Positions 520-57,187 of a stretch of 64,000 bases of DNA are shown piece by piece. Origin of the DNA: Mobula hypostoma (Eukaryota); the NCBI RefSeq assembly GCF_963921235.1, contig NC_086097.1:9052001-9116000 (forward strand), read 5' to 3'. The notes under the pieces are model-generated. The model was not told the origin of the DNA and ran no database searches. It saw only the letters and a list, made by a program, of their open reading frames with translations. Position numbers and translations under genes: made by a program. How positions within the stretch are numbered: the first letter of the stretch is position 1; every line of letters begins with the position of its first letter.

Positions 520-725
520 CCTTCCCCTTAACCTTCCCCTCCCCACCCCGACAACCATCTGATTCTAGGTTCTACCCCACTTTCTTCCCAGTACTGGTGA
601 AGGGTCTTGGCCTGAAAAGTCAACTGCTTATTAATTTTGATAGAAGCTGCCTGAGCTGCTGAGTTCCTCCAGCATTTTGTGTGCTGCTCTGGATTTCCAG
701 CATCTGCAGGATTCTTATGTTTAGA
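520..725 (+). mobile_element. Penelope-like pLTR fragment with degenerate hammerhead
   Basis: CTGGTGA-AGGGTCTTGGCCT-GAAA-AGTC at 594-621, followed by the shared tail ending CAGCATCTGCAG. Confidence 0.7.
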
Positions 726-1119
726 AATTCACTGCATCTCTGTTTATCAAATAATGCAATCTTAACAATTATTAAATTGAGTTTCCAGAAAACTTTCACA
801 TTCTCTGTTCCTCAAAGTCAAGCAGTCCCAACCAGGCTTCAGATAGTAAATGATAAACACTATTCCTGACAACAAGTAGTAGTTTGTGAACAACTCCAAC
901 AAGGGAACTTAACATAATTTTACTAATTTTAACTATTTTTAATATTGTTAATATTTAATATTTGAAATCCAGGGAGTGTGAAGCGCAGAATCAAATATCG
1001 CTGTGATGATTGTATGTTTTAGTACCAATTGTTTGGTGACAATAAAGTATAAAGTATAATTATCTCCAAGTATGAAATCATCAGCATTCAGATGGTGATT
1101 ATTGATCAATTCAGGTTTT

Positions 1120-1502
1120 ATTGATCAGGTATATAAAATTATGATGGGTATTGATAGAGTGAATACAAGCAGGTTTTTTCCGCTGAGGCAAGGGGAGAAA
1201 AAAACCAGAGGATATGGGTTAAGGGTGAGGGGGGAAAAGTTTAAAGGGAACATTAGGGGGGGCTTCTTCACACAGAGAGTGGTGGGAGTATGGAATGAGC
1301 TGCCAGATGAGGTGGTAAATGCGGGTTCTTTTTTAACATTTAAGAATAAATTGGACAGATACATGGATGGAAGGTGTATGGAGGGATATGGTCCGTGTGC
1401 AGGTCAGTGAGACTAGGCAGAAAATGGTTCGGTACAGCCAAGAAGGGCCAAAAGGCCTGTTTCTGTGCTGTAGTTTCTCTGGTTCTATGGTTCTATGGTT
1501 CT
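1120..1502 (+). mobile_element. CR1 LINE 3' end
   Basis: KKTRGYGLRVRGEKF...FFTQRVVGVWNELP; (TTCTATGG)n tail; near-identical to 47515-47838. Confidence 0.92.
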
Positions 1503-1544
1503 AATTCATTTTCAATTGGGCAATTCATATACATTTCACACGTG

Positions 1545-4500
1545 CACACCCCAATCAGATTGGATTGGTAACAACATCTCTACAATCTCCATCTGCACAA
1601 GTGCACCACAGGAATGTGAGCTTAACTGCCTGCTCGACTCACTTTACCCTTATGACTGTAAGGCTAAGCACAGCTCCAATGCTAGATTGAAGCTTGCTGA
1701 TAACACTACTGTCATTGGCAGAATCAAACATGGTGATGAATCAGTGTATGGGAGGGAAACTGAAATTCTGGCTCAGTTGTGCCAAACAACAAGCTCTCCC
1801 TCAATGTTAGCAAGACCAAGGAGAAGACTATTGACTTCAGCAGGAGGAAACCGGAGGTCTATGAGCCGTCCTCATCAGGGGATCAAAGACTGAGAGGGTC
1901 AGCAACTTTAAATTCTCGGTCTTATCATTTCCGTAAGGCCATAAGATATAGGAGCAGAAGCTGGCCATTCAGTCCATCATGTCTGCTCCGCCATTCAATC
2001 ATGGCTGATCCTTTATTCTATCTCTTCATCAACCCCGTTTTCTGGCTATCTCCCCATACCCTTTGGTGCCCTGGCTATTCAAGAACCTATCAATCTCTGC
2101 CTTGAATGTACCAATGACTTGGCCTCCAGGGCCGTTTGTGGCAACAAATTCCACAGATTTACCACCCTCTAACTAAAGTAATTTCTCTGCATCTCTGTTC
2201 TAAATGGATCCTGAAATCCTGTCCTCTTGTTCTGGATTCTCCTACCATGAGAAATAACTTGGCCATATCTAATTGGTTCAGTCTTTTTAACATTCGGAAG
2301 GTTTTTATGAGATTCCCCTTCATTCTCCTAAACTCCAGGGAATACATCAAAGAAATGCCAGACGTTCCTCATTGGTAACCCTTTCATTCCTGGAATCATT
2401 CTCGTGAATCTTCTCTGAACCCTCTCCAATGTCAGTATATCCATTCTAAAATAAGGAGCCCAAAACTGCAGACAATACTCTAAGTGTTGTCTCACGAGTG
2501 CCTTATAGAGCCTCAACATCACATCCCTGCTCTTACATTCTATACCTCTAGAAATGAGTGCAAGCATTGCATTCGCCTTCTTCACCACCCACTCAACCTG
2601 GAGGTTAACCTTTAGGGTATCCTGCACAAGGGCTCACAAGTCTTTTTGCATCTCTGCATTTTGAATTCTCTCCCTATCTAAATAATAGTCTGCCCATTTA
2701 TTTCTTCCACCAAAGTGCATGACCAGACACTTTCCAACACTGTATTTCATTTGCCACTTCTTTGCTCATTCCCCTAAACTATCTAAGTCTCTCTGCAGGC
2801 TCTCTGTTTCCTCAACACTACCTGCTCCTCCACCTATCTTTGTATCATCGGTAAATTTAGCCACAAATCCATTAATTCCATAGTCCAAATCATTGACATA
2901 CATTATAAAAAGCAGTGGTCCCAACACCGACCCCTGTGGAACTCCAGTGGTAACTGGCAGCCAGCCAGAATAGGATCCCTTTTTCCCACTCTCTGTTTTC
3001 TGCCAATCAGCCAATGTTCCACCCACGCTAGTAACTTCCCTGTAATTCCATGGGCTCTTATCTTGCTAAGCAGCCTCATGTGCGGCACCTTGTCAAAGGC
3101 CTTCTGAAAATCCAAGTACACCACATCTACTGTATCTCCTTTGTCTACCCTGCTTGTAATTTCCTCAAAGAATTGCAGTAGGTTACTCAGGCAGGTTATT
3201 TTCTTTCAGGAAACCATGCTGGCTTTGGCCTATCTTGTTATGTGCCTCCAGCTACACCGTAATCTCATCCCTAACAATTGATTCCAACACCTTCCCAACC
3301 ACTGATGTCAGGCTAACAGGTCTATAGTTTCATTTCTGCTGCCTCCCACCCTTCTTAAATAGCGGAGTAACATTTAGAATTTTCCAGTCAGCCGGTACAA
3401 TGCCAGAATCTATCAATTCTTGATAGGTCATTGTTAGTGCCTCCGCAAGCTCTCCAGCTACTTCCTTCAGAACTCGAGGGTGATTCCATCAGGTCCAGGA
3501 GATTTATCCACCCTCAGGCCTTCTCAGTTGTAAGTTACACTCCACATACTTCATTTCCCTGACACTCTTTAATATCCGGTATACTGCAGGTGTCTTCCAC
3601 TGCGAAGACTGATGCAAAATACACATTCCGTTCCTCTGTCATCTCTGCGTCTTTCATTACAATATCTCCAGTGTCTTTTTCTATTGGTCCTATATCTACC
3701 CTCAACTCTCTTTTACCCTTTACATACTTAAAAAAGCTTTTAGTATCTTCTTTGATATTAGTCGCCAGCTTCCTTTCATAATTCATCCTTTCCTTCCTAA
3801 TGACCTTCTTATTTTCCTTCTGCAAATTTTTAAAAGCTTCCCAATCCTCTGTCTTCCCACGAGCTTTGGCTTCCTTGTATGCCCTCTCTTTTGCTTTTAC
3901 TTTGGCTCTGACTTAATTTGTCAGCCACAGTAGTGTCCTTCTTCCATTCAAAAATTTCTTCTTATTTGTAATATATCTGTCTTGCACTTCCCTCATTTTT
4001 TGCAGAAACTCCAGCCATTGCTGCTCTGCTATCTTTCCTGTTAGTGTCCTTTTCCAGTCAACCTTGAACAGTTCCCCTCGCATGCCATTGTAATTTTCTT
4101 TATACCGCTGAAATAAAGACACATTGGAATTTAGTTTCTCCTTCCCAAATTTCAAAGTGAACTCAATCATCCTGTGATCACTGTTCCCCATTTCAGAGAA
4201 CCTGTCCTGGTCCCAGTGTGTAAGTGCAGTTACAAAGAAAGCATGCAGTGTCTCTACTTCTTGAGAAGTTTATGAAAATTAGTGATGAAGTTTGCATGAC
4301 AATTTTCAAGAGATGTGTGCTGGAGACTATATTGACTGGTTGCATCACAGCCTGGTATGGAAACACCAATACCTTTGAACATAAGATTTTGTAAAAATTA
4401 ATTGATACAACCTTGTCTATTGGGGTAAAATCCTTCCCACCATTGAGCACATCTGCACAGAGTGCTGTCACAGGAAATCAGCATCCATCATCAAGGAGCC

Positions 4501-7432: not shown

Positions 7433-7645
7433 CAACAGGAATTCTGCAGATGCTGGAAATTCAAGCAACACACATCAAAGTTGCTGGTGAACGCAGCAGG
7501 CCAGGCAGCATCTGTAGGAAGAGGTGCAGTCGACGTTTCAGGCCGAGACCTGACGAAGAGTCTCGGCCTGAAACGTCGACTGCACCTCTTCCTACAGATG
7601 CTGCCTGGCCTGCTGCATTCACCAGCAACTTTGATGTGTGTTGTT
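7433..7645. mobile_element. Palindromic Penelope-derived insertion with hammerhead core in the loop; 14-bp TSD
   Basis: Arms 7466-7549 and 7560-7643 (83/84 complementary); TSD TGAGGAAATGGAGG at 7419-7432 and 7646-7659. Confidence 0.9.
7546..7581 (+). ncRNA. Minimal type I hammerhead ribozyme motif
   Basis: CTGACGA(7550-56)-AGAGTCTCGGCCT-GAAA-CGTC/GACT; predicted cleavage after C7577; stem I has one mismatch. Confidence 0.7.
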
Positions 7646-8570
7646 TGAGGAAATGGAGGGATGGGTTAGTAAATTTGCTGATGACACAAAGGTTGGGGGT
7701 GTTGTGGATAGTGTGGAGGGCTGTCAGAGGTTGCAGCAGGACATTGATAGGATGCAAAACTGGGCTGAGAAGTGACAGATAGGATTCAACCCAGATAAGT
7801 GTGAGGTGGTTCATTTCAGTAGGCCAAATATAATGGCAGAATATAGAATTGCAGTGTGGAGGATCAGAATGATCTTGGGGTCCGAGTCCATAGGACATTC
7901 AAAGCTGCTGCGCACGTTGACTCTGTGGTTAAGAAGGCATACGGTGCATTGGCCTTCATGAACCATGGGATTGAATTGAAGAGGTGAGAGGTAATGTTAC
8001 AACTTTTTAGGACCCTGGTCAGAGCCCACTTGGAGTACTGTGCTCAGTTTTGGTCACCTCACTATAGGGAGGATGTAGAAACTATTGAAAGGGTACAGAG
8101 GAGACTTAGAATGATGTTGCCTCGGTTGGGGAGAATACCTTTTGAGAATAGGTTGTGAGAACTTGGCCTTTTCTCCTTGAAGCGAAGGAGGATGAGAGGT
8201 GACCTGATAGAGGTTTGTAAGATAATGAGAAGCATTGATCGTGTGGATAGTCAGAGGCTTTTTCCCAGGGCTAAAATGGCTAACACGAGAGGGCACAGTT
8301 GTAAGGTGCTTGGAAGTTGGTACAGAGGAGATGCCAGGGGTAAGTTTTTTGTGCAGAGAGTGGTGAGTGCATAGATTAGGCTGCCAGCAACAGTGGTGGA
8401 GGCGGATACAGTAGGGGCTTTTAAGAGACTCCTCGATAGGTAGATGGAGCTTAGAACAATAGAGGACTATGGGTAACCCTTGGTAATTTCTAAAGTAAGT
8501 ATATGTTCCACACAACATTGTTGGCCAAAGGGCCTGTATTGTGCTGTAGGTTTTCTATGTTTCTATGTTT

Positions 8571-12841: not shown

Positions 12842-12954
12842 CTGAAAATAAGACAGACAGTGATATGACTTAGTTCATGACAAAAACATGTCAAATTACA
12901 ATACTTAGGGGTTACACTTACAGCTGAGAAATACTTTAACAATAAAACTATGTA

Positions 12955-19775: not shown

Positions 19776-20125
19776 AGCAACACACACAAAATGCTGGAGG
19801 AACTCAGCAGGTCAGGCAGCATCTTATGGATTGTTGGCATTTCAGGCTGAGAACCTTCATCAGGACTGAGAAGGAAGGGGGAAGATGCCAGAATAAAAAG
19901 GTGAGGGGAGGGGAAGAAGGCTAGCTAGAGGTGAATCTAGATGGGTGGGGAAGTTAAAGGGCTGGAGAGAAAGGAATCTGATAGGAGAGGAGAGAGGACC
20001 ATTGGAGAAATGGAACAGGAGAAGATACAGGGGAGAAACGATAGGCAGATGAGAAGAGGTAAGAGGGAAATAGAGGAAGGGTGGGGAGAATTAGTTTACC
20101 GAACAAAGAAATCAATATTCATGCA
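19776..20125 (-). mobile_element. Penelope-like 3' end/pLTR inserted in a CR1 fragment
   Basis: Minus strand CTGATGA-AGGTTCTCAGCCT-GAAA-TGCC (19836-19863); purine-rich tract like 24940-25290. Confidence 0.75.
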
Positions 20126-23930: not shown

Positions 23931-23944
23931 TTTATATCATTCTT

Positions 23945-24500
23945 ATCGTATGACGGGTGATTGATGGCTCTGGGCCTTTGCTCACTGGAATTTAGAACAA
24001 TGAGGGGGATCTCATTAAAACTTATCAAATGTTGAAGGGCTGAAATAGAGTGGATGTGGAGAGGATGTTTCCTACGGTGGGGAACCTAGGATGAGTGGAC
24101 ACAGCTTCAGGATAGAGGGACATCCATTTAGAAAGAAGACGAGGAGGGATTTGTTTAGCTAGAGAGTGGTGAATCTGTGGAACTCATTGCCACAGGCAGT
24201 CGTGGAGTACAGGTCATCGGGTGCATTTAAGGTGGAGGTTGATAGATTCCTGATTAGTCAGGGCTTCACAGTTTACGGGGAGTATGCAGCAAAGGGAGAT
24301 GAATCAGTCCTGATGCAGGGTCTCGGCCTGAAACTTCGACTATACTCTTTGCCTGTCCTGCTGAGTTGCTCCAGCACTTTGAGCGTGCTGCTTGGATTTC
24401 CAGCAACTGCAGATTTTTTCTTGTCAGACATGATGAAATACCTGAGCAAATTCAAGGGGCCAAATAGTCTAATTTTACTCCGATGTTTTGTGGTCTTATA
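23945..24500 (+). mobile_element. CR1 3' fragment containing a short Penelope pLTR (~24310-24422)
   Basis: VVNLWNSLPQ; insert AGTC-CTGATGC-AGGGTCTCGGCCT-GAAA-CTTC-GACT. Confidence 0.75.
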
Positions 24501-24849: not shown

Positions 24850-26026
24850 CACACACAAAAAGCTGGTGGAATACAGCAGGCCAAACAGCATCCATAGGAA
24901 GAAGCACAGTCGAAGTTTTGGGCCGAGACCTTTCGACAGGACTAACTGAAAGAAGAGATAGTAAGAGATTTGAAAGTGGGAGGGGGAGGGGAAGATCCGA
25001 AATGATAGGAGAAGAGAGGAGGGGGAGGGATGGAGCCAAGAGCTGGAAAGTTGATTGGCAAACGAGGTACGAGGCTGGAGAAGGGAGAGGATCATGGGAC
25101 GGAAGGCCTAGGGGGAAAGAAAGGGGGAGGGGAGCCCAGAGGAAGATGGAGAGCAGGTAAGGAGTTATTGTGAGAGGCACGGAGAGAGAAAAAAGAGGGA
25201 GAAAATAAATAAATAAATAAATAAATAAATAAGGGATGGAGTAAGAAGGGGAGGAGGGGCATTAACGGAAGTTAGAGAAGTCAAAGTTCATGCCGTCAGG
25301 TTGGAGGCTACCCAGACGGAATACATCGACCTCTCTAACTTCCATTAATGTCCCTCTTCCCCTTCTTACCCCATCGCTTGCTTATTTATTTATTTATTCA
25401 GGACTAACTGAAAGAAGATATAGTAAGAGATTTGAAAGTGGGAGGGGGAGGGGGAGGGGGAGATCCAAAATGATAGGAGAAGAGAGGAGGGGGAGGGATA
25501 GAGCTAGGAGCTGAAAAGTTGATTGGCAATAGGGATAGAAGGCAGGAGAAGGGAGAAGATCATGGGACGGGAGGCCTAGGGGGAAAGAAAGGGGGAGGGG
25601 AGCCCAGAGGAAGAGGGAGAGCAGGCAAGGAGTTATTGTGAGAGGGACAGAGAGAAAAAAAACTCCTTGCCTGCTCTCCCTCTTCCTCTGGGCTCCCCTC
25701 CCCCTTTCTTTCCTCCTAGGCCTCCCGTCCCATGACCTTCTCCCTTCTCCTGCCTTCTATCCCTTTTGCCAATCAACTTTCCAGCTCTTGGCTCCATCCC
25801 TCCCCCTCCTCTCTTCTTCTATCATTTCGGATCTCCCCCTCCCCCTCCCACTTTCAAATCTCTTACTATCTCTTCTTTCAGTTAGTCCTGACGAAGGGTC
25901 TCAGCCAGAAATGTCGCCTGTGCTTCTTCCTGTGGATGCTGTCTGGCCTGCTGCGTTCCACCAGCTTTTTGTGTGTATTGCTTGAATTTCCAGCATCTGC
26001 AGATTTCCTCGTGTTTGCGTTTTTAA
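24850..26026. mobile_element. Complex fold-back Penelope-derived insertion; 13-bp TSD
   Basis: TSD ATGAAACAAGATT at 24837-24849 and 26027-26039; outer inverted pLTRs; hammerhead motifs at 24907-24943(-) and 25884-25919(+). Confidence 0.88.
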
Positions 26027-39478: not shown

Positions 39479-40083
39479 ACTCGAGTCTCTCTGATACACA
39501 CTGCATCGTGTCAATGGCGGGGGTGGGGGTGGGGGTGGAATCATTTCTGTCATCTCTGTTTTCTGTTTTTCAGCTATTCTTATATCTATGCCAATGTTTT
39601 ACTCACTGTAACATTGAAACAGTGAGCTGTTGCATTCCTCCCTTGCTATGGCAGGAGAAATATCTCTCTTTCCCCCATTAGTGAGAGAGAGGGTCTGTTG
39701 AGATTTTGAGGTGACTGGATGAACAGTAGTTTTTGATGGACTATAGATCATTGTCTTTTGGGGACTTGCTATTGCTTGCAAGGTAGGTTGGGGGGGGCTT
39801 ACACTTTCTGCTGGAACAATTCAGCAAAGCTGGGGAGGGCTGATGCTTTGCTGCTATTTGTGTGTGGGAAGCAGAGGGGGCTTTGGTACTTTTCAGTCTT
39901 TATATATTTTCGCTCTGTTTCATGGATGTCTGCAAAGATTACGGATTTCAGGTTGTATACTGTATACAGTAGTTTCTCTGATATTAAATTGAACTATTGA
40001 ATCATTGAACTGACACCATCAATGAGCATAAAGGTCTTGCTTGACGACTGAACAGTTCAGGAGGCATCTATGGAAAGAACAAT

Positions 40084-40121
40084 CAGTTGACATTTCAAGC
40101 TGAGATTCTTCATCAGAACTG
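40084..40121 (-). ncRNA. Minimal hammerhead motif in a Penelope pLTR remnant (40050-40200)
   Basis: Minus strand CAGTT-CTGATGA-AGAATCTCAGCTT-GAAA-TGTC-AACTG; perfect 5-bp stem I and intact core. Confidence 0.65.
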
Positions 40122-41117
40122 GAGTGTATTAGGGAAATGCCAGAATAAGAAGGAGGGGGGAAGGGAAGCTAAAATTGTTGAGGGTGGGATTGAGCCAGAG
40201 AGAGGGAGAGGGCAGTGTGTTCGGAGGGGGCAAGTTAGAATAGGAGAGATTTTTGATTAAATCAGTGCCTTTATTCGATGTGTGCAAACAGCCATTTCAG
40301 CACAAGCTTTGCAGGCAGTAGCTCTTTGAAATGGTTCAGATTTTGGCTCCAATTAATTTGCATAATCAGAACATAATTTCTAACAGTGGATCAGTGCAAT
40401 CTGATTGCATTTTAAAAGATAATTGTATTGCTTCCTTCCATTAAAACATAGTTTGACATGTTTAATTGTGGTAAACTGGCGTGTTTTATTAATATACAAA
40501 TGCAAGTGAGTTTATCACCAGCAATAAGCCTTTTTCTAATGTGTCTGGTCTACCATCCATGAATAATCAGGTTTTAAATCACTGGAAATTAGAGGTACAT
40601 TTAGAGCTTGCATGTCATAGAGTCATAGAACGCAAGAGCACAGAAATAGGCCCCTTGGCCCATCTTGTCTGTACCAAACTGTTCATCTACATGGTCTTAT
40701 TGACCTGCACCTGGACCATAGTCTGCCTGCTATACCCCTCCCATCCATGTACCTATCCAAATTTTTCTTAAATGTTGAAATCGACCCTGTACAATCATAT
40801 TTTTATTTATAAATTAAGAATTTTCTGGAACATCTAAACACTATCTTTTTGTGCTGGTGTGTTTTGAAAGTGCTTAATTTTGATAGCCTCATCAAAGTCT
40901 CACAACTGCTTTTGGCAGAAACACACTGATTAATCTGGTCTGGTAACCTTGGCCATTTTGATCACTAAATCCCAGCATGATACTTTATAAACTCGCCTCG
41001 CTTAGAATTTAAATTGTAAATTAACTTTTACTGTTCATTTCAGTTGATTTGGCAGACTTTGCCTGAACTACAGACACCAGCACAAACAGGCTGATATCAA
41101 TAGGCACAGTACTCTTC

Positions 41118-41345
41118 AAAACAAAAGATTCGGCAACTGCTGGAAATCCAGAGCAACACACGCAGAATGCTGGAGCAACTCAGCTGATCAGACAGCATCC
41201 ACAGAAACCAGTAAACAGTCGACATTTGGGCCGAGACCATTCATTAATCCTGATGAAAAGTCTCAGACTGAAACATCAACTGTTTATTCATTTCCACAGA
41301 TGTTGCTTGACCTGCTGAGTTCCTCCAGCAATTTGTATCTTGTTC
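41118..41345. mobile_element. Older palindromic Penelope-derived element
   Basis: Diverged inverted arms around CTGATGA-AAAGTCTCAGACT-GAAA-CATC (41250-41277). Confidence 0.75.
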
Positions 41346-42074
41346 TAACCTCCTTCAGATGGGAAAGCAGAGGATACTGGAACAGGAGGAGGGGATTTCA
41401 CTAACCAAGAGCATTACGCCATCTCAGTATATAATATCTAATCCAAATGTCAGTCCATTTAACTGTATGCTCTCAATATTCATTCATATCCTCAAGAATC
41501 AAAAACTAACTGACCTCATTCCTGAACACAACTTTCTGAGAGAGAGCTCCAAGTATCTATTATTCTTTGTGTGAAATGAAAAAAAAGCTGTTAATATTTC
41601 AGGCCAAGAGCCTTCATTAGATCTGGCCATTCTTAGATGGCCCACTTCTGTTTTCAAGATTACATCTTACTGGAAAAAATTCTTAACCTTAATAGAATCG
41701 GGGTTGCTTGGCTCGGCTCAAAGCGCTGGAAGGACCTATTCTGTGCTGTATCACAATAACATAATTTAAAAATAAATTTAAAAAAAGATATTCTGTGCCA
41801 AAATCAAAACATTTTATAAGATATGCCAGATAATATTCCAGATACTTATTCTGATATGACCTGTATGGCAAGATTACTGGGAAAATTGATTTGATTGTGA
41901 AAGTTTGGCAACAAATCAGTGACCTCCTGTGTAGAACAGTTAATTAATCCCATTGTAGATTGTCCATACAGCTGGGTGAAGCATGGAATGGGAAGTTATG
42001 TGGTCCGTCCTGTAAAATCACATTGAATCATCTTTTTAAACTACCTCAGAAAACTCTAGAGCAGCAAATTAGTC

Positions 42075-44160: not shown

Positions 44161-44164
44161 CCAC

Positions 44165-45150: not shown

Positions 45151-45420
45151 GAGACAACTCCAAGATAAAAACAGAGCATATTTTCCAGTGCATTTCTCTA
45201 GAGTTCGCATATAACTTCTGAATCACATTGAAGGATAACATTTTCATCAGGTCTATCTAACCTGAAAGCCAGTTCAGAGTAGAGTCCACATAACTTCTCA
45301 TACTCTCTGCATGCAGTTCTGGTCACTTACCTACAGGAAATTGTCAAGAAATTTATTATTTTGCGGCAGCAGTACTTGCAATACATCGTAATAAAAACTA
45401 TAAATTACAATAAGAAATAT

Positions 45421-48400
45421 TTGGAAGTCTTGTTGATCACTGAACTTGGAAAAATTGAAGCAGATGTTTCAGCTCTAATCGAGAAACCATCATCAGTGTT
45501 CAGTTGAGGGTATTGACTACTCAGAAGGCCTGCTTATATATTCCTCTGGAGTCTGAATGGATATTGATTAGACGTTGTGATCCGGTTGACTGGTTCAAAA
45601 CACAGTGAACAGTTTAGCAGTAGAAGATTCTGATTGACTAGCTTCGAGGGAGGTCCAGTGGAAGTGATTGTTTCACTGTTCAGATCCTGAGAATACTGGT
45701 GATTCATTGATTGTTGATGTTGTTGTTTCTCGTTTCTGCGTAAGGGTTCATATACCAGACCTACGTTGATGTGTTTGTTGATGGATCCTTCTGCAGAGAA
45801 CCGCACTTTGATAAAATCTTGTTCTTTTCTTGTTCTTGCTTGAGTCAAGATTCTGGATGTCGTCCATTTGCAATAGTGCCCTTCTTCAGAAGAAGAAGGA
45901 GTTGTATGACGTGTATAGGAAGCAGGGAGTAAATAAGGTGCTTGAGGAGTATAAGAAGTGCAAGAAAATACTTAAGAAAGAAATCAGGAGGGCTAAAAGA
46001 AGACATGAGGTTGCCTTGGCAGTCAAAGTGAAGGATAATCCAAAGAGCTTTTACAGGTATATTAAGAGCAAAAGGATTGTAAGGGATAAAATTGGTCCTC
46101 TTGAAGATCAGGGTGGTCGGCTATGTGCGGAACCAAAGGAAATGGGGGAGATCTTACATAGGCTTTTTGCGTCTGTGTTTACTAAGGAAACTGGCATGAA
46201 GTCTATGGAATTAAGGGAAACAAGTAGTGAGATCATGGAAACTGTACAAATCGAAAAGGAGAAAGTCCTTGCTGTCTTGAAGAAAATTAAAGTGGATAAA
46301 TCCCCGGGACCTGACAGGGTGTTCCCTCGGACCTTGAAGGAGACTTGTGTTGAAATTGCAGGGGCCCTGGCTGAAATATTTAAAATGTCACTGTCTACAG
46401 GTGAGGTGCCGGAGGATTGGAGAGTGGCTCATGTTGTTCCGTTGTTTAAAAAAAGATTGAAAAGTAATCCGGGAAATTATAGGCCAGTAAGTTTAACGTC
46501 GGTAGTAGGTAAGTTTTTTGGAAGGAGTACTAAGAGACAGAATCTACAAGCATTTGGATAGACTGGGACTTATTAGGGAGAGTCAACATGGCTTTGTGCG
46601 TGGTAGGTCATGTTTGACCAATCTATTGGAGTTTTTCGAGGAGGTTACCAGGAAAGTGGATGAAGGGAAGGCAGTGGATATTGTCCACATGGAGGTAAGG
46701 CCTTTGACAAGGTCCCGCATGGGAGGTTAGTTAGGAAAATTCAGTCGCTAGGTATACATGGAGAGGTGGTAAATTGGATTAGATATTGGCTCGATGGAAG
46801 AAGCCAGAGAGTGGTGGTAGAGAATTGCTTCTCTGAGTGGAGGCCTGTGACTAGTGGTGTGCCACAGGGATCAGTGCTGGGTCCATTGTTATTTGTCATC
46901 TATATCAATGATCTGGATGATAATGTGGTAAGTTGGATCAGCAAGTTTGCTGATGATACAAAGATTGGAGGTGTAGTAGACCGTGAGGAAGGTTTTCAGA
47001 GCCTGCAGAGGGACTTGGACCAGTTGGAAAAATGGGCTGAAAAATGGCAGATGGAGTTTAATACTGACAAGTGTGAGGTATTGCACGTTGGAAGGACAAA
47101 CCAACGTAGAACATACAGGGTTAATGGTAAGGCACTGAAGAGTGCAGTGGAACAGAGGGATCTGGGAATACAGATACAAAATTCCCTAAAAGTGGTGTCA
47201 CAGGTAGATAGGGTCATAAAGAGAGCTTTTGGTACATTGGCCTTTATTAATCAAAGTATTGAGTATAAGAGCTAGAATGTTATGATGTGGTTGTATAAGG
47301 CATTGGTGAGGCCGAATCTGGAGTATTGTGTTCAGTTTTGGTCACCAAATTACAGGAAGGATATAAATAAGGTTGAAAGAGTGCAGTGAAGGTTTACAAG
47401 GATGTTGCCGGGACTTGAGAAACTCAGTTACAGAGAAAGGTTGAATAGGTTGGGACTTTATTCCCTGGAGCGTAGAAGAATGAGGGGAGATTTGATAGAG
47501 GTATATAAAATTATGATGGGTATAGATAGAGTGAATGCAAGTAGGCTTTTTCCACTGAGGCAAGGGGAGAAAAAAACCAGAGGACATGGGTTAAGGGTGA
47601 GGGGGGAAAAGTTTAAAAGGAACATTAGGGTGGGCTTCTTCACACAAAGAGTGGTGGAAGTATGGAATGAGCTGCCAGACGAGGTGGTAAATGCGGGTTC
47701 TTTTTTAACATTTATGAATAACTTGGACAGATACATGGTCCGTGTGCAGGTCAGTGGGACTAGGCAGAAAATGGTTCGGCACAGCCAGGAAGGGCCAAAA
47801 GGCCTGTTTCTGTGCTGTAGTTTCTATGATTTCTATGGTTTCATCTTCATGAGCTGATACTAGCGAGAATGGGTTGTGCCTTGTGTGCGCTAGCTGATGT
47901 TCATGTAGATTGGTCCACAGTTTTCTTCCTCTTTGACCAATGCAGTACTTGTTGCAGTCACTACACTGATTTTGTAGATAACATTTATTATATCAGTCAC
48001 ATTTTGTTGCCCTTTGAGTTTTGAATGGTTCCTCCTCAAAGTAGCAGTCAGTTTGTGAGCAACTGTGGTGTTACTGAAGAAGTCTGACTCTCATTTTTGA
48101 GATATTCTTTATGAAAAGCGATACTATTCGTTTATTTATAGTTTGTGTAGTTTGCATATTCAGATTTCTGACCTTGAGGCACCTTTGGATAAAGCATCTT
48201 GGATATCTGTTCTGTTGGAATATTTTGAAGAGGCGCTTTCCTTCTTCAAGTTCTTTCATAAAGAAAATCTCAAAAATTACAGTAAGACTGCTTCAGCAAT
48301 CACCTGCACTGGACCTCCCTTGAAGCTGGCCAACCAGAATCTTCTACTGCTAAACTGTTCATGGTGTTTTGAACCAGCCACCTGGATCAGGACAGCTAAT

Positions 48401-48580
48401 TAATATCCATTCAGACCCTGGAGGAGTATGTAAGCTGGCATTCTGAGGAGATAACACCCTCAATTGCGCACTGAGGATGGTTTCTCTATTGGAGCAGAAA
48501 CATCAGCAAACATTTTGTCAAGCTCAGCGTCAACCAAGCTTCCAAGTAGCCAACTGAGCTACCAATCCATAATTTTCCAA
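45421..48580 (-). mobile_element. Penelope element: GIY-YIG end plus inverted pLTR, split by CR1
   Basis: FQQNRYP..IQRCLK..FIKNISK..RLL (48071-48259); HNPFSLVSAHEDE|EGH..W..QARTRK..SINKHI; inverted repeats 45421-45670 and 48295-48546, each with a hammerhead motif. Confidence 0.82.
45889..47839 (+). mobile_element. 5'-truncated CR1 LINE
   Basis: ORFs 45830, 46518, 46766 and 47402 carry CR1 RT motifs; TTCA at both junctions. Confidence 0.95.
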
Positions 48581-49724
48581 ACAAGAAGTATACTTAAAAA
48601 ATTAAATTGAAAAATTAGTGCAAAAAATAGTGAGGTAGTGTACATTCAGACTAGTAGGGTTCATTGTCCATTCAGAAATCTGATGGTAGAGAGGAAGAAG
48701 CTGTTTCTGAAACATTGAGTGTGTGATCAGACTCCTGTCCCTCCTCCTTATTGAGAAGTGCGAACGTCCTAGGAGATGGGGGGTCCTTAAAGATGGATTC
48801 CGCCTTTCTGAGGCATTGATAGAGAGGGCTATAGATGTAGATATATATGAGGAGTACAGATATAGATATAGATATATATGAAGAATATAGATATAGATGT
48901 GGAAATATATGAGGAGTATAGATAGGAAAAAAGCAAGCAGTTTTTTTTTCCATTCAGGTTGGATGAGACTACAACTAGTGGTCATGGGTTTAGGGTGAAA
49001 AGGTGAAAGGTGAACTGTTTAAGTGAAACATCAGGGGGAACATCTTCACTCCGAGGGTGGTGTGAGTGTGGAGTGAGTTGCCAGTGGAAGTGGTGGAATA
49101 TAGTTCAATATTCATAGTTAATAGAAATTTGGATAGGTACATGGATGGGAGGAGTGTAGAGAGCTATGGTCCAGGTGCAAGTCAATGGGACTAAGCAGGT
49201 TATAAGTTCAACGTAGACTAGTTGGACCAAAAGGTCTGTTTCTGAATGGCAGTGGTCTATGACTCTACGACTATAACCTGCTTAAAAATATCTAACTGTT
49301 ACAGTAATTTCCAGCGGTATTTAACTGTGGCACGTGAACATTTATGCAACAGGAACAGATTGCACATAGAGCAATGGTGTTTTCAACCTTGCACGCAAAA
49401 TGTGAACAATTCACTCCTGGTGTCTATTATCTAGAGCAATTTTGAGGTTTTTATTTCCAACCATACTGTTATAGTCAATGAAGCAATCACAGCCAGAGAT
49501 CAGCAATGTATTCTTCTAACAAAATGTGTAACCATTATTTGAAAAATGACATTAAAAGAGGTTGAGTGGCAAGCCATACTGATATGTAGAAAATAGGTTG
49601 CAAAAGTAGGTTGTTAAACGGGAAATAAAGTACTAGAAGTAAAGATGCTACAAAATAGCAAATTTCATGACTTACTCCAGTGACAAGAAAACTGATTCTC
49701 ATTTTGATTCTGTATTCCATGAGA

Positions 49725-52330: not shown

Positions 52331-52814
52331 CAAGCTGTACTAGATAGTGGTTCCCATTACAATGGGGAGATGAAGGAAGAGGTCTTCTTTCTCTGTTCAT
52401 CTAATTAGTGAACTAGAACACAGAACAGTTTCAGCCCACAATGTTGCACCAATCAGCTGAAAAGTAAGTCAAAAACCCCCAAACATTGATCCCTCCTCTC
52501 TCCATAATGTCCATACCCTCCATCTCCCTCATTCATGTGCCTACCTAAACATCTGTTAAAAGACTTTAATGTATTTGCCTCTGCTGGCATACCAGGCATC
52601 CACTGCTCTCTAGTAGAAAGCTAACCCCTCACATCTCCTTTGAACCTACCCCTATCCTATGAATATGTTTTCAGTCTGGATTTGAAAGAAATTTAGTCCA
52701 AAATTTTATCCACATGGCAGCCCTGTGTGTATTAACATTGGGTGACATACAACAACCAGGACTTTCAGTTGTTTCACATTACTGTAGACATTTGACTGGT
52801 AATATCCATGTCTC

Positions 52815-53072
52815 AATGGGTAACGTTGGGTACCCACATGGGCGCCAGCCATATCTGCCGTTTTGTTGGCTACATAGAACAGTAGGTAGTGCTCCTCAAC
52901 TCCTTCATTGATGACTACACCGGTGCTGCTTCACGAACCCATATTCTGCTTGTCAATTTCATCAACTTTGCCTCCAACTTCCACCCTGCCGATAAGTTCA
53001 CTTGGTCCATATCTAAAACCTTTCTCCTCTTTCATCTCCTCCCTTACCTCCATTCAGGGCCCCAAACAGTAG
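52815..53072 (+). pseudogene. Penelope-type reverse transcriptase fragment
   Basis: GTHMGAS...FVGYIEQ and FIDDYTGAAS.TH..LVNFINFASNFHPA.KFTWSIS. Confidence 0.8.
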
Positions 53073-55109: not shown

Positions 55110-55320
55110 AGATTGTAGATGCTGGAATCTTGACCAAAATAAAAACCATGGAAGAACTGAATGGGTCAAGCTGTATCTGTGGATGGAAAGAATTGTTGAT
55201 GTTTTTGGATGAAACCCAGCAGCAGGATTGAATGCAGTGTTTTGACCTGAAAAAATCAATAATCCCTTTCCTCCTGTAGATGATGCTCAACTCACTGAGT
55301 TCCTCCAGCAGATTGTTAAT
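55110..55320. mobile_element. Highly decayed palindromic Penelope-derived element
   Basis: AGATGCTGGAATC..GAACTGA left arm; CTGAGTTCCTCCAGCA right arm. Confidence 0.55.
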
Positions 55321-55384
55321 TGCCAGAGTTAAGATGTCATAGATCTTGATATACATGCATTACTTCAAGAATTCATTTGGCATT

Positions 55385-56200
55385 CAAGGTTGTTCAAAGT
55401 CATTTCCAGTACACAGTGTAAAGGAGAACAAAATAATTGTTACTCTAGATCTGATGTTGCACAGAAAAACACAGTAAAATAAAGAACACAATAATAATTA
55501 AAATAATAAATATATATATATATATATATAACATAACTTATATACATAGGTTGAATGTAAGTTTATAAAGTACTTAAAGTAACTGACAGGAATGATAAAG
55601 TTGGGATGGGTTAGTCGATGGAGGCGTTGATCAGCCTTACTGCTTGGGGAAAGTAACTGGATTTGAGTCTGCTGGTCCTGGTGTGGATGTGATGTTATGG
55701 AGCAACCACCTGATGAGAGTGGTATGAACAGTCCATGAGCAGGGTGGGTGGGATCCTTCATGATGTTACTGGCTGTTTTGGGGCATCTTTCTCTATCTAT
55801 GTCCTTGATGACAGGTAGGCTAGTGTTGGTGATGCACTGGACAGTTCTGACTAGAGTTGTAGAGTTCCTGTCTGCCACAGTACAGTTTCTATACACAAAA
55901 TAAACTGCAGATGCTGGGGTCAATATACTATGCAATGATGCAGCATGTTAGGATGCTCTCTGCTGCGCATCTGTTGAAAGACATTAGCATAGATGTGCAT
56001 AGTCCAGCTCTCTTCAGCTTCCTCAGAAAGTAAAGGCATTGGTAAGCTTTCCTGATTGTGTAGAATGTGTTCTGGGACCATGAGAGGTTGTGTGAGATGT
56101 GCACTCCCAGGAGTTTGAAACTGCTTGCAGTTTTCCCTGCTCTGCCGATGATGCAAAGGGGGGTATGAATGGTGTGAGTTCTCCTGTATTTGGTAACTAC
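55385..56200 (-). mobile_element. Rex1/Babar-type LINE 3' part
   Basis: FKLLGVHIS.NLSWS, QCLYFLRKLKRAGL, KDPTHPAHGLF. Confidence 0.85.
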
Positions 56201-57051
56201 TTCTGTAACAGCAAAACAATCCAAAATCAAACCAAAACAATTGCCACTAGCCTGCGATCCTCCAGAGTCCCAATACTAGGGTGATGTGCCCTCAGCTCCA
56301 CTGAAATGTTTGTTCCAAAGAGTCAAATTCCTTATTTTGATCCTTTATTAGCAATTAGCGAACATACAGTGAAGCATTATTGAGCTTAGTTCTCAGCAGT
56401 CAGCAAAAATATGATCTCCGCAGGTCCCAGGTTGCAATCACAAAATAAGCAAGATTACCTAACTTATTCCCTTCACTTTTACCACCCCCCCCCATTCATG
56501 AGACTATTTACCATAAGAAACATAATAAACCCCAAAACACTTAACACAAAGCAGATGGAGAACAGATACATGGCCCTTATAGTCTCCCTTGCTTTGTTGA
56601 CATTGAGGAAAACGTTATTCACCTGGCACTATGTCTTGAGCAATGTGGCAAGCAATCAGGAAGGTAAATGAGATGCTGGACTTTACTGTTTAAGTATAAA
56701 GTGGCGATATGCATCGGGACAATAATGCAGGACACTGGTGATATCACATCTGGGATATGGTGAGTATGTCTGGTCACCCTATGTAAAGAAGGATATATTG
56801 CAATTGATAAAGTGTACTGACTGTCCACTCGATCAATTACTAGGTTGGAGGTGTTTGTTGTATGAGGAGAGATTACGTAATCTCGGCCTATGGTCTCTTG
56901 AGTTTAGATTAAAAATAAGTGGTCTCATTGAAACATGCAAATTCTGATAGGGCTTGGAGGGTAGATGAGTCACAGATGGTTATGCTGCCTGAAACAAAGG
57001 ATCATAGTCTCAATGTAAGAGTTTAGCCACTCAAGACAAAGATGAACAAAT

Positions 57052-57187
57052 GTACTGATGAAGGGTCTCAGCCCGAAATGTTGATTGTTTATTCATTTCC
57101 AAAGATGCTGCCTAACTTGCTGAGTTCTTCCAGCATTTTGTGTGTGTTGCTCTGGATTTCCAGTATCTGCAGAATCTCTTGTATTTT
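57052..57187 (+). mobile_element. 136-bp Penelope pLTR insertion starting at the hammerhead core; 9-bp TSD
   Basis: TGAACAAAT at 57043-57051 and 57188-57196; CTGATGA-AGGGTCTCAGCCC-GAAA-TGTT at 57055-57082. Confidence 0.8.

What the first reader, a model, noticed from the sequence alone, without database searches (positions are those of the whole stretch)
594..57187. About a dozen minimal hammerhead-ribozyme motifs carried by short Penelope-derived mobile units
Seen: the motif [stem I]-CTGAnGA-[stem II]-GAAA-nnTC-[stem I'] recurs at 594(+), 7550(+), ~19836-19863(-), 24310(+), ~24907-24943(-), 25888(+), 40084-40121(-), 41250(+), ~41600-41622(-) and 57055(+), and in a second family at 45463-45496(-) and 48471(+). 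Several copies have core or cleavage-site mutations. Known: Penelope-like elements carry minimal type I hammerheads in their pseudo-LTRs, with a tiny palindromic stem III (GAAACGTC) thought to need dimerisation. Inference: most copies here have no ORF, are 130-1200 bp long and have their own 9-14 bp TSDs, so they behave as a prolific non-autonomous ribozyme-bearing retroelement population (about one per 5-6 kb).
Basis: partly seen in the sequence, partly recalled or inferred. Interest (0 to 1): 0.8.

Follow-up and report, generated by a model that had tools for sequence, protein, structure and literature searches.

The report
Decayed hammerhead motifs in Penelope tails
The window is sprinkled with short, broken tail-end copies of Penelope-like jumping genes, each carrying a worn remnant of the small hammerhead self-cutting RNA motif that such elements are already known to carry, so the catch is correct but of a known kind.

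Summary
The motifs are real. All 12 listed sites hold a recognisable hammerhead (HHR) homologue, and 6 keep both conserved boxes against 0.56 expected. A profile search finds 16 family-1 arms in the window. They are the last 100-135 nt (HHR plus tail) of a Neptune-like Penelope-like element (PLE). In 8 of 12 genome loci with long RT+GIY-YIG frames, the same HHR lies about 300 nt downstream of the frame. The insertions show the published PLE signatures: 5' truncation, head-to-head fold-backs, two alternative 3' ends, and exact TSDs of 9-14 bp. The second family is the tail of another, decayed PLE. No window copy keeps a complete HHR fold. There is no stem covariation among 65 copies, no Rfam hit, and no RNA data. 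A separate non-autonomous family is not needed, though it is not excluded. One point goes beyond the routine: of the first 100 sites on one contig that keep an HHR 22-mer intact, 28 begin within 4 nt at the HHR's 5' edge. Earlier notes of this scan reached the same reading on other, shark-type genomes.

The parts
1..60 (+). Family-1 tail fragment with no HHR, cut by the window start
   Evidence: nhmmer profile positions 47-106, E 2.1e-10
533..722 (+). Old family-1 (1B-type) arm. HHR remnant at 594-628 with core A6>G. It extends about 55 nt upstream of the HHR and ends at the long 3' end.
   Evidence: 73% identity to the L013 tail. No TSD found.
7433..7645 (.). Young fold-back insertion inside a LINE RT frame. 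The minus arm 7433-7550 has the long tail end and starts inside helix II. The plus arm 7546-7645 has the short end and starts at CCUGACGA. The TSD TGAGGAAATGGAGG lies at 7419-7432 and 7646-7659.
   Evidence: Arms 98% complementary (I25). 98-99% identity to L013. TSD exact, 14 bp.
19776..20066 (-). Old 1B-type arm of about 290 nt. HHR remnant at 19826-19868, short 3' end.
   Evidence: 75% identity over 307 nt to the ORF-linked 1B copy in L018..
24304..24424 (+). Single short unit that starts at the HHR's 5' edge. The HHR remnant has core A9>C. Long 3' end.
   Evidence: The upstream flank is an unrelated repeat. Only a 6-bp candidate TSD.
24850..26026 (.). One complex fold-back insertion of 1.18 kb. 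Minus arm 24850-25323 holds an HHR remnant at 24907-24943. Inner inverted pieces lie at 25323-25661. Plus arm 25684-26026 holds an HHR at 25888-25915. The TSD ATGAAACAAGATT lies at 24837-24849 and 26027-26039. A remnant of the ORF C-terminus lies at 25265-25363(-).
   Evidence: (I1, I10). 79-81% identity to L013.
40018..40174 (-). Old 1B-type arm. The HHR at 40084-40121 is the best preserved in the window: core intact, helix I 5 bp, helix II weakened.
   Evidence: The only pass of the relaxed descriptor..
41119..41346 (.). Old fold-back. Minus arm 41119-41253 has the long end, plus arm 41248-41346 has the short end. The two arms are joined at the HHR's 5' edge, and both HHRs are mutated.
   Evidence: No exact TSD.
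41580..41625 (-). Isolated 45-nt HHR-like fragment without a tail. Core G5>A.
   Evidence: nhmmer E 2.8e-6, profile positions 2-46..
45418..45888 (-). Family-2 long arm, 3' part. HHR remnant at 45463-45496, short 3' end.
45889..47839 (+). LINE fragment (RVT_1 80.9 bits) inserted into the family-2 long arm. It is not part of the Penelope element.
   Evidence: L036 has the same family-2 sequence uninterrupted.
47840..48252 (-). Family-2 long arm, 5' part. It is homologous to the stretch that carries a decayed GIY-YIG remnant in genomic copies.
   Evidence: The remnant itself is not detectable in the window at E<=1.
48295..48582 (+). Family-2 short arm. HHR remnant at 48471-48504 and a 3' extension of about 40 nt. 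The candidate TSD is AAGAAATAT / AAGAAGTAT.
52811..53069 (+). Fragment of a PLE RT coding region with an internal deletion and no tail attached.
   Evidence: tblastn with the L013 frame, aa 477-559, 54% identity, E 6e-19..
55114..55314 (.). Minus arm 55114-55227, plus arm 55232-55314.
   Evidence: nhmmer E 2.2e-8 and 1.5e-5. Sequence read. The 8-bp TSD candidate is ambiguous.
57052..57187 (+). Single short unit that starts at the HHR's 5' edge. The HHR at 57055-57082 has intact boxes and a 4-bp helix II, but helix I is lost. Long 3' end. The TSD TGAACAAAT lies at 57043-57051 and 57188-57196.
   Evidence: The upstream flank is unique.

Best explanation
The motifs are relics of minimal type I hammerheads that sit in the 3' untranslated tail (pseudo-LTR region) of Penelope-like retrotransposons in this 3.48-Gb animal genome.

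Family 1 belongs to an abundant PLE with features of the Neptune clade. [quoted passage not shown] At least three lineages are seen: 1A is young, 1B and 1C are older. The order of a unit is: short 5' leader, frame, about 300 nt of 3' UTR, HHR (38 nt), about 65 nt, first cDNA end site, about 35 nt, second cDNA end site. Family 2 is the tail of a second, decayed PLE.

Shown here:
- the linkage of the HHR to the frames;
- the pseudo-LTRs;
- the inverted truncated arms;
- the two alternative 3' ends;
- the TSDs.

Inferred from the published in-vitro work on the Anolis PLE:
- The endonuclease cuts both DNA strands at the target.
- Each 3' end primes reverse transcription at one of two internal sites in the RNA tail.
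- cDNA synthesis mostly aborts, or runs off the template, early.
- The two cDNAs are joined head to head.

This leaves single or fold-back tail copies of 100 bp to 1.2 kb that are dead on arrival. In the window they then decayed, to my reading largely by CpG transitions, so none can fold into a complete hammerhead.

In active elements the HHR is kept nearly unchanged between lineages whose frames differ by 23-33% in nucleotides. It is therefore useful to the element. Whether its use is self-cleavage of multi-unit transcripts is not shown.
For: - Pattern enrichment: 6 matches against 0.56 expected.
- 16 arms in the window and 14 in 100 kb of randomly placed genome.
- GIY-YIG family hits: 149 at E<=0.01 among 150 scored candidates, from 27,350 first-look candidates.
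- In 8 of 12 loci chosen for long frames, the family-1 HHR lies 272-541 nt downstream on the same strand.
- Pfam on the L013 frame gives GIY-YIG 23.6 bits (cut-off 22.6) and RVT_1 20.8 bits (below cut-off 29.6). The frame also reads YIDD, CKRNKCYTC and YIG.
- L015 has direct 446-nt repeats (94% identical) on both sides of the frame, each with an HHR.
- L013, L014, L015, L017, L018, L020 and L023 carry inverted truncated arms next to the frame.
- 3' ends fall in two groups. Of 30 arms, 7 are short, 11 are long and 12 are other or cut. All 3 of the window's 3 well-kept fold-backs have one end of each kind.
- Exact TSDs of 14, 13 and 9 bp.
- The window's youngest copy is 98-99% identical to L013.
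- An exact 22-mer of the HHR occurs 62,809 times in the genome; the reversed control occurs 0 times.
- A 100-nt piece of the frame has 40 of 40 scored hits at 99-100% identity.
- The 1B lineage copy in L018 runs from the HHR up into a frame that is 67% identical to L013.
- Family 2: one arm of each pair carries a 40-nt extension. tblastn links it to RT (E 6.6e-7) and to GIY-YIG in 6 of 6 loci (E 0.001-0.35).
- Published signatures match. I read passages of PMC8557442, PMC11167929 and PMC8969392, and two of the four parts of the text of PMC4209133.
Against: - No Rfam hammerhead model recognises either family.
- Folding energy of the best copies is not unusual. z is -1.05 and -1.44, and 28 and 14 of 200 shuffles fold as well. 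The minimum-energy fold pairs core bases.
- There is no compensatory change among 65 family-1 copies: 84.4% of cells are paired against 84.7% in shuffles.
- Cleavage was not tested and no RNA data could be had.
- RVT_1 is below Pfam's cut-off for family 1, and both domains are below it for family 2.
- 5' ends are not spread at random. 28 of 100 young copies start within 4 nt at the HHR's edge. A plain 'random truncation' picture does not explain this, and it could instead mark a short RNA that propagates on its own.
- Family 1 has U rather than C at 11.1 in its commonest form, so the usual G10.1-C11.1 pair is a G-U wobble. A C variant exists.
Confidence: 0.85

Rival explanations
1. The short units are a distinct non-autonomous retroelement: a SINE-like 'mini-Penelope', or monomers of a retrozyme. 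It has its own internal promoter at the HHR's 5' edge, is transcribed from its own copies, and is mobilised in trans by PLE proteins.
For: - 5' ends cluster sharply. 28 of the first 100 exact HHR 22-mer sites on contig C1 start 0-3 nt upstream of GTCC. Of these, 11 have unrelated flanks and 17 are in fold-backs.
- By my manual classing, about 12-13 of about 21 insertion events in the window plus 100 kb of random genome start there.
- The start sequence YYAGTCC fits the initiator consensus YYANWYY. That is my recollection of the consensus; no tool tested it.
- Only 1 of 20 copies that keep the frame's 5' region begins at that point. So the short class is not simply the 5' end of the full-length RNA.
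- Non-autonomous PLE derivatives are in print (abstract and Results of bioRxiv 10.64898/2026.07.22.740005; passages of PMC7229834).
Against: - The units hold no sequence of their own. They are collinear with the autonomous tail at 98-99% identity in the youngest case.
- Short and long copies share the same tail variants, by my reading on small numbers.
- None is in a direct tandem of 170-400 bp as retrozymes are. The only same-strand pair under 1 kb in the window is 41242/41600, 358 nt apart, and one member is a 45-nt fragment.
- The HHR is the minimal type, not the canonical type I of retrozymes.
- Family 2 shows no such pile-up among its 8 arms of 155-880 nt.
Confidence: 0.13
2. The motif matches are chance resemblances in a repeat. 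The repeat has nothing to do with ribozymes.
For: No Rfam hit. No covariation. Unremarkable folding energy. No window copy has a complete fold.
Against: - Both conserved boxes, the spacing, the unpaired base after A9, the register-specific helices and the ACGU palindrome are all present in the best genomic copies of two unrelated-looking families. The helices are 84% paired against 17-44% when the partner is slid.
- The two families have different helix sequences: AGUC/GACU and GGGU/GCCU against GCA/UGC and GGCUUC/GGAGCC.
- The motif sits where published PLE hammerheads sit, and 18 copies in 276 kb of held genome pass the strict descriptor.
- The HHR differs at 3 of 37 positions between lineages 1A and 1C, whose frames are 77% identical.
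Confidence: 0.01
3. Some of the window's copies have been taken over by the host as working ribozymes, for example in transcript processing.
For: None found. Conserved intronic hammerheads in amniotes are mentioned in a passage of PMC7229834.
Against: Every window copy is defective. Copies diverge at the rate of the surrounding repeat (72-81% identity to L013). No RNA evidence.
Confidence: 0.01

Closest known systems
Minimal hammerheads (min-HHR) in the pseudo-LTRs of metazoan Penelope-like elements (Cervera and de la Pena 2014, PMC4209133; parts 1-2 of 4 of the text read)
   Same: - Type I topology.
- CUGANGA and GAAA boxes.
- An unpaired base after A9.
- No helix III, but the palindromic ACGU.
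- Location in the repeat that flanks an RT+GIY-YIG frame.
- Thousands of dispersed single copies, put down to truncated PLEs.
- Pairs 100-700 bp apart on opposite strands.
   Different: - Family 1 has a short helix II (4 bp with two wobbles) and mostly U at 11.1. Family 2 fits their consensus well, with a 6-bp helix II and G10.1-C11.1.
- Their supplementary figures of vertebrate families were not seen, so I cannot say whether these exact families are listed.
Poseidon PLE of Anolis carolinensis, PAc (Frangieh et al. 2024, PMC11167929; passages read)
   Same: - The HHR lies about 70-100 nt upstream of two adjacent internal sites where reverse transcription starts.
- There is an optional 30-40 nt 'tail' between the two sites.
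- Both DNA strands are cut and extended, which explains fold-backs with one long and one short end.
- Uncleaved RNA is the main template. Here 0 of 30 arms begin at the cleavage site, and 1 of 20 copies that keep the frame's 5' region does.
   Different: - In PAc the frame starts inside the HHR. Here the frame starts about 45 nt after the long tail end.
- The clade differs: a CX4CXXC linker is present here.
- Nothing was tested biochemically here.
Non-LTR retrozymes of animals (Cervera and de la Pena 2020, PMC7229834, passages; Li, Clavereau and Pollet 2026, bioRxiv 10.64898/2026.07.22.740005, abstract and Results)
   Same: ORF-less, HHR-bearing sequences related to PLE pseudo-LTRs. They co-occur with PLEs. 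Monomer derivatives are dispersed in genomes.
   Different: - Retrozymes are direct tandem repeats of 170-400 bp (51-972 bp in the preprint). They carry canonical type I HHRs and are expressed as circular RNAs.
- The units here are single or inverted, 100-135 bp at the smallest, with minimal HHRs, and no RNA data.
- The preprint's one cartilaginous-fish entry is in supplements I could not open.
Penelope of Drosophila virilis (Schostak et al. 2008, PMC2377424; passages read)
   Same: - The transcription start lies inside the pseudo-LTR, from a TATA-less internal promoter with an initiator.
- According to PMC4209133, an intron ends at the 5' edge of helix I.
- Here a pyrimidine tract plus CAG, and in 1A a UACUAAC-like box, precede the HHR's edge (read).
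   Different: No transcript data here. The start site or splice site at the HHR edge is inference only.

Membership tests
min-HHR of metazoan PLEs (Cervera and de la Pena 2014) | Conserved core boxes CUGANGA and GAAA with H at position 17 | tested here: met
   Exact in 6 of the 12 listed window sites. Exact in 18 strict hits in 276 kb of held genome. One HHR 22-mer occurs 62,809 times genome-wide.
min-HHR of metazoan PLEs (Cervera and de la Pena 2014) | Helices I and II that close on the core, with an unpaired base between A9 and 10.1 | tested here: met
   Best genomic copies: family 1 has helix I of 5 bp and helix II of 4 bp after an unpaired A. Family 2 has helix I of 3-4 bp and helix II of 5-6 bp after an unpaired U. 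In the window, 0 copies meet this.
min-HHR of metazoan PLEs (Cervera and de la Pena 2014) | G10.1-C11.1 pair | tested here: inconclusive
   Across 65 family-1 copies: GU in 35, GC in 23, AU in 1 and unpaired in 6 (pair 19/30). Family 2's best copies have G-C or G-U.
min-HHR of metazoan PLEs (Cervera and de la Pena 2014) | Palindromic 15.2-16.2 (ACGU) in place of helix III | tested here: met
   GAAACGUC in the best genomic copies of both families. It is lost by CG>TG/CA changes in most window copies.
min-HHR of metazoan PLEs (Cervera and de la Pena 2014) | [quoted passage not shown] | tested here: not met
   Within family 1: 3 compensatory cells against 3.2 in shuffles, and 84.4% paired against 84.7%. 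Only the comparison between families 1 and 2 shows different helices that still pair.
min-HHR of metazoan PLEs (Cervera and de la Pena 2014) | Self-cleavage at the site after H17, as dimer | not testable with these tools
   No assay was possible, and no RNA runs were available.
Canonical endonuclease-positive PLE (Neptune-type) | Single frame with RT followed by a C-terminal GIY-YIG endonuclease | tested here: met
   L013 frame of 871 aa: GIY-YIG 23.6 bits, over the cut-off. RVT_1 20.8 bits, under the cut-off, with YIDD read in the sequence. For family 2 both domains are under the cut-off.
Canonical endonuclease-positive PLE (Neptune-type) | [quoted passage not shown] | tested here: met
   CKRNKCYTC at aa 738 of the L013 frame, upstream of the GIY-YIG stretch. 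No phylogeny was made, so the clade name rests on this motif alone.
Canonical endonuclease-positive PLE (Neptune-type) | Pseudo-LTRs from partial tandems, an adjacent inverted 5'-truncated copy, and a 30-40 bp tail at one end only | tested here: met
   - L015 has direct repeats of 446 nt.
- 10 of 20 copies that keep the frame's 5' region are preceded by a copy reaching back into its own frame.
- Inverted arms are present in 7 loci.
- All 3 of the window's 3 well-kept fold-backs have one long and one short end.
Non-LTR retrozymes | Direct tandem repeats of a 170-400 bp unit, each with an HHR | tested here: not met
   There is no direct tandem in the window. The one same-strand pair under 1 kb (358 nt apart) includes a 45-nt fragment.
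Non-LTR retrozymes | Expression as linear and circular RNAs | not testable with these tools
   No RNA holder was listed, and only contigs could be laid.
Rfam hammerhead families | Match to a curated covariance model | tested here: not met
   No hammerhead family at gathering score or at E<=10 in the window, in L013:5540-5740 or in L036:2660-2860. My inference is that the models miss these motifs because the motifs lack helix III.

The most novel reading that the evidence does not exclude
The 5' edge of the hammerhead is the 5' end of the element's template RNA, either a start site in the pseudo-LTR or a processing site. The 100/135-nt stretch from the HHR edge to the two cDNA end sites would then stand at both ends of the transcript, like the R region of a retrovirus. 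About a quarter of all young insertions would be run-off cDNAs of that stretch, often joined to a second, shorter cDNA by a template jump. In that case:
- the hammerhead sits at the very 5' end of the PLE messenger, where cutting would remove the cap;
- the HHR-to-tail module is the minimal unit that the PLE machinery copies;
- such a unit could also propagate from its own copies if the promoter is internal.
Probability: 0.3. Interest if true: 0.55.

Novelty: new member of a known kind. Interest (0 to 1): 0.28.

Why it matters
As it stands, this is a correct but routine annotation. A large animal genome carries tens of thousands of tail-end copies of Penelope-like elements, and their hammerhead motifs are mostly dead. 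Three things are useful:

- **Annotation.** Hairpin-like fold-backs at 7.5, 25, 41 and 55 kb, which also draw false microRNA-model hits, should be masked as PLE debris.
- **A natural record of insertion.** The genome appears to record the PLE insertion mechanism at scale: two cDNA end sites, priming on both strands, and no use of hammerhead-cut RNA as template. This agrees with the single in-vitro study.
- **A testable handle.** The sharp pile-up of 5' ends at the ribozyme's edge could show where PLE transcripts begin and what the ribozyme is for, which is still an open question in the papers I read.

Tried and rejected
- **Rfam.** No hammerhead family at any threshold. The many microRNA-model hits at 25.2-25.8 kb and 7523-7586 are the fold-back arms, all below gathering score.
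- **RNA evidence.** No RNA holder was listed. The four runs laid were Logan contigs, probably DNA. They show no starts or ends, and their depth cannot rank parts of the element. No joint consistent with an intron ending at the HHR edge appeared among the 15 joints shown; 695 were not shown.
- **Thermodynamic folding.** Folding of the unit and of single HHRs gave no signal. z was +0.79 for the 141-nt unit, and -1.05 and -1.44 for the best copies.
- **Covariation within family 1.** None.
- **Copy number by DNA search.** The 100-nt unit returned 0 candidates, because very common words are skipped. Counts for neighbouring pieces (133 and 1,303 candidates) are therefore not comparable. Exact pattern counts were used instead.
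- **Larger random sample.** Only 10 random 10-kb pieces were obtained.
- **'Start site at the HHR edge' tested on copies that keep the frame's 5' region.** Only 1 of 20 begins there. 10 of 20 run back into the previous copy's frame, and 1 begins exactly at the HHR cleavage site. The test does not support the simple form of the idea.
- **Structure-induced RT stop.** Rejected by reasoning: a stop would fall on the 3' side of the HHR, not on its 5' edge.
- **Cleaved RNA as template.** 0 of 30 arms start at the cleavage site.
- **Family 2 as a DNA transposon with long inverted ends.** Rejected. The junction points of the arms differ between loci, and one arm per pair carries the 40-nt extension.
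- **Family 2 frame by Pfam.** Only sub-threshold hits.
- **Earlier findings of this scan.** Searches by sequence and by place gave nothing.

Full report
**1. Observation**

The window lies in a 3.48-Gb, 200-contig genome. The plain pattern CTGANGA-N4-30-GAAA-NN-TC has 6 exact matches, against a mean of 0.56 in 100 dinucleotide shuffles; no shuffle reached 6. Each holds the motif or a mutated copy of it.

Alignment of the copies shows a shared unit. It begins a few bases before the CUGA box and runs for about 100 or about 135 nt. A profile built from 18 such units finds 16 arms in the window and 14 in ten randomly placed 10-kb pieces of the genome.

**2. State of the window copies**

I applied a structural descriptor: exact boxes, helix I of at least 4 bp, helix II of at least 3 bp with at most one unpaired base, and 15.2/16.2 able to pair. 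It passes no window copy and no site in 200 shuffles. A relaxed version passes only 40089-40116(-), against a shuffle mean of 0.025.

Read against the commonest genomic form, every copy has a defect:
- Core changes at 594, 24310, 24907, 41242 and 41600.
- Loss of the ACGU palindrome at 594, 19836, 24310, 24907, 41250, 41600, 45463 and 48471.
- Loss of one strand of helix I, or a mismatch in it, at 7550, 19836, 25888 and 57055.
- A weakened helix II at 7550, 25888, 40084 and 41250.

By my reading, many of the differences are CG to TG or CA changes. Rfam finds no hammerhead family in the window or in the best genomic copies.

**3. What family 1 is**

The genome is full of GIY-YIG coding remnants: 149 matches at E<=0.01 among 150 scored candidates, from 27,350 first-look candidates. 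I fetched 12 loci chosen for long open frames. In 8 of them (L013, L014, L015, L017, L018, L019, L020, L023) the sequence CTGACGAAGGGTCTCGGCCYGAAACGTY lies 272-541 nt downstream of the frame on the same strand.

The L013 frame (871 aa, stop to stop) scores GIY-YIG 23.6 bits, over the cut-off. It scores RVT_1 20.8 bits, under the cut-off. It reads HYIDD, then CKRNKCYTC, then the GIY-YIG stretch. PMC8557442 (passages read) gives a CX2-5CxxC linker as the mark of the Neptune and Nematis clades. I made no tree.

L015 has direct 446-nt repeats (94% identical) on either side of its frame, each with an HHR. Seven loci carry an inverted, 5'-truncated copy next to the frame; in L013 it is 705 nt at 95.7%. 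The frame starts about 45 nt after the long tail end (MPTPKKF...).

The family looks recent:
- 40 of 40 scored hits to a 100-nt piece of the frame are 99-100% identical.
- 40 of 40 scored hits to the tail-to-frame junction match end to end at 97-100%.

An older lineage (1B) has the same HHR and tail below a frame that is 67% identical to L013 in nucleotides. Most of the window's copies resemble this lineage. A third lineage (1C, L019) is 77% identical in the frame. Its HHR differs from 1A at 3 of 37 positions (my count). Upstream of the HHR the lineages no longer align.

**4. Insertion anatomy in the window**

- **7433-7645** is a fold-back with 89-nt arms, 98% complementary. It is 98-99% identical to L013 and is flanked by an exact 14-bp TSD. 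It lies inside a LINE reverse-transcriptase frame.
- **24850-26026** is one complex fold-back of 1.18 kb with an exact 13-bp TSD.
- **57052-57187** is a single unit with an exact 9-bp TSD.
- **41119-41346 and 55114-55314** are older fold-backs without a clean TSD.
- The remaining family-1 pieces are single arms.

Across the 30 arms, 3' ends fall into two groups about 30 nt apart: 7 short, 11 long, and 12 cut or decayed. In all 3 of the window's 3 well-kept fold-backs, one arm has the long end and the other has the short end.

These are the published marks of PLE insertions:
- heavy 5' truncation, partial tandems, an adjacent inverted truncated copy, and a 30-40 bp tail at one end only (PMC8557442 and PMC8969392, passages);
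- dual minimal hammerheads 100-700 bp apart on opposite strands, and most motifs as single, probably truncated, elements (PMC4209133, parts 1-2 of 4 read).

The in-vitro study of the Anolis element found two adjacent internal sites of cDNA initiation about 90 nt past the HHR cut site. It found cutting and extension of both DNA strands. It also found that uncleaved RNA is the main template (PMC11167929, passages). The arms here fit that picture. None of the 30 arms begins at the HHR cleavage site.

**5. Family 2**

The two sites at 45463(-) and 48471(+) are the two arms of one fold-back, and a LINE has since inserted into its long arm:
- Long arm, minus strand: 45418-45888 plus 47840-48252.
- LINE: 45889-47839, RVT_1 80.9 bits.
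- Short arm, plus strand: about 48295-48582.

The family has at least 368 first-look candidates in the genome. Other loci show pairs whose arms meet at different points, and single arms of 880 nt or more. These are therefore independent two-armed insertions, not an element with fixed inverted ends.

One arm of each pair carries an extension of about 40 nt. The family's commonest form is a textbook PLE minimal hammerhead: CUGAUGA, an unpaired U, a helix II of GGCUUC/GGAGCC, then GAAACGUC. Two of the held arms pass the strict descriptor.

Upstream of the tail, genomic copies keep faint coding remnants:
- tblastn with the L013 frame gives E 6.6e-7 over its RT part in L039.
- It gives E 0.001-0.35 over the GIY-YIG part in 6 of 6 loci.
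- Pfam gives only sub-threshold GIY-YIG (16.9 and 17.0 bits) and RVT_1 (19.6 bits).

The link to a PLE frame is thus likely, but weaker than for family 1.

**6. Is the ribozyme reading sound?**

For:
- Both boxes, their spacing, the unpaired base after A9, helices that pair in register and the ACGU palindrome are all present. The helices are 84% paired, against 17-44% when the partner is slid.
- These features occur in two families whose helices differ in sequence.
- The position in the element is the published one.
- The motif is held nearly constant between lineages whose frames have diverged by 23-33%.

Against:
- No compensatory change among 65 distinct family-1 copies: 3 cells against 3.2 in shuffles.
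- Ordinary folding energies, and a minimum-energy fold that pairs core bases.
- U at 11.1 in the commonest family-1 form.
- No cleavage or RNA data.

The lack of covariation is what neutral decay of dead copies would give.

**7. Non-autonomous family, or debris of the autonomous element?**

The short copies hold only sequence found at the 3' end of ORF-bearing copies. The youngest is nearly identical to that tail. The same tail variants occur in short and long copies, by my reading on small numbers. That favours debris.

The 5' ends, however, are not random. The exact 22-mer GTCCTGACGAAGGGTCTCGGCC occurs 62,809 times; the reversed control occurs 0 times. 37,243 of these (59.3%) are preceded by the element's own CTTCAGTYA.

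For the first 100 sites on contig C1, 57 have that 9-mer. I fetched 60 nt upstream of the other 43:
- 13 have variants of the same UTR.
- 1 has another lineage's UTR.
- 1 stops 13 nt upstream.
- 28 begin 0-3 nt before GTCC. Of these, 11 have unrelated flanks and 17 are joined to an inverted arm whose own end varies.

So 28 of 100 young copies end within a 4-nt span, 3-6 nt before the CUGA box. In the window plus the random pieces, my manual classing gives about 12-13 of about 21 events at that point. This count came after I removed cases where the alignment stopped there only because lineages diverge upstream. Family 2 shows no such pile-up among 8 arms.

**8. What the pile-up may mean (inference)**

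A cDNA that regularly ends at one base, and then often continues on a second cDNA, is what a reverse transcriptase does on reaching the 5' end of its template and jumping. The simplest reading is that a template RNA begins at the HHR's edge.

Published work places the start site of Penelope and of a green-algal PLE inside the pseudo-LTR (PMC2377424 and PMC8557442, passages). In D. virilis an intron ends at the 5' edge of helix I (PMC4209133). The local sequence YYAGTCC fits an initiator as I recall it. A pyrimidine tract plus CAG precedes the edge.

Against the simple form of this idea, only 1 of 20 copies that keep the frame's 5' region begins at the edge, and 10 of 20 run back into a preceding copy's frame. 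That could be reconciled if new copies land in the tails of old ones, but I did not test this.

I could not get RNA data. My rough odds for the cause of the pile-up:
- 0.35 for a start site;
- 0.25 for another RNA 5' end or a protein-bound boundary;
- 0.15 for a self-propagating short element;
- the rest unknown.

**9. Comparison and novelty**

The kind is in print:
- minimal hammerheads in PLE pseudo-LTRs and their mass of solo copies in fish, coelacanth and frog genomes (PMC4209133);
- the insertion anatomy (PMC8557442, PMC8969392);
- the two cDNA start sites (PMC11167929);
- PLE-derived non-autonomous retrozymes (PMC7229834; bioRxiv 10.64898/2026.07.22.740005).

Retrozyme membership fails here on the tandem criterion. 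Earlier notes of this scan on other, shark-type genomes reached the same reading. I formed mine before seeing them and tested it independently here.

I found no statement in print that insertion 5' ends pile up at the hammerhead's edge. Supplements of PMC4209133 and of the preprint were not seen, so this is not a firm claim of novelty.

**10. Verdict**

The catch is correct, and the Penelope origin is supported. The idea of a distinct non-autonomous population is neither needed nor shown. All window copies are relics. This is a new member of a known kind, with one quantitative side result worth an RNA-end experiment.

Noticed in passing
L053 (G000:C45:79427349-79427869): In 1 of 20 copies that keep the frame's 5' region, the forward copy begins exactly at the base after the HHR's GUC cleavage site and is joined to an inverted arm. 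This is the only case seen of an end that a cleaved RNA would give.
   Followed up: partly
L084/L085 (G000:C1:2546781-2546898): A fold-back in which both arms run to the HHR edge and overlap by the self-complementary dinucleotide TA (GGAC-TA-GTCC). It looks like a junction made through microhomology.
   Followed up: no
genome places listed (C11:106 kb, C21:15 kb, C75:4 kb, C5:9-12 kb, C1:34 kb, C12:20 kb and the last 10 kb of C12; C130:559-575 kb): Many of the best GIY-YIG matches lie within about 100 kb of contig ends, or in an array of five matches 2-6 kb apart on C130. This suggests tandem arrays of PLE copies near chromosome ends.
   Followed up: no
window 25443-25852 and 7523-7586: The fold-back arms draw dozens of sub-threshold microRNA-precursor model hits (best 121 bits against a gathering score of 168). 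These are artefacts of long perfect hairpins.
   Followed up: yes
window 6362-8539, 31320-33000, 34300-36998, 45889-47839, 43356-44309(-): Several copies of LINE-type retrotransposons with KFADDTK reverse-transcriptase frames (RVT_1 up to 80.9 bits). One hosts the young Penelope fold-back, and one sits inside the family-2 element.
   Followed up: partly
window 63179-64000: A tandem repeat of 329 bp, with at least 2.5 copies at 96-98% identity, runs off the window's end in a stretch of higher G+C (0.50). A 247-aa open frame overlaps it at 63008-63751.
   Followed up: no
window 32001-36000: Strong G over C skew (+0.38) across a LINE-rich stretch.
   Followed up: no
L013 5586-5626 and the unit in general: GUCGAC, formed by the cleavage triplet plus helix I, is a 6-bp palindrome that competes with the 4-bp ACGU pairing assumed for the active dimer. 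The tail also holds CAGAUGCUG ... CAGCAUCUG, a 9-bp complement that brackets the short cDNA end site.
   Followed up: no
window 2353-2454 (-): A weak U6 snRNA-like match (20.1 bits against a gathering score of 44, E 1.8), possibly a decayed U6 retrocopy.
   Followed up: no
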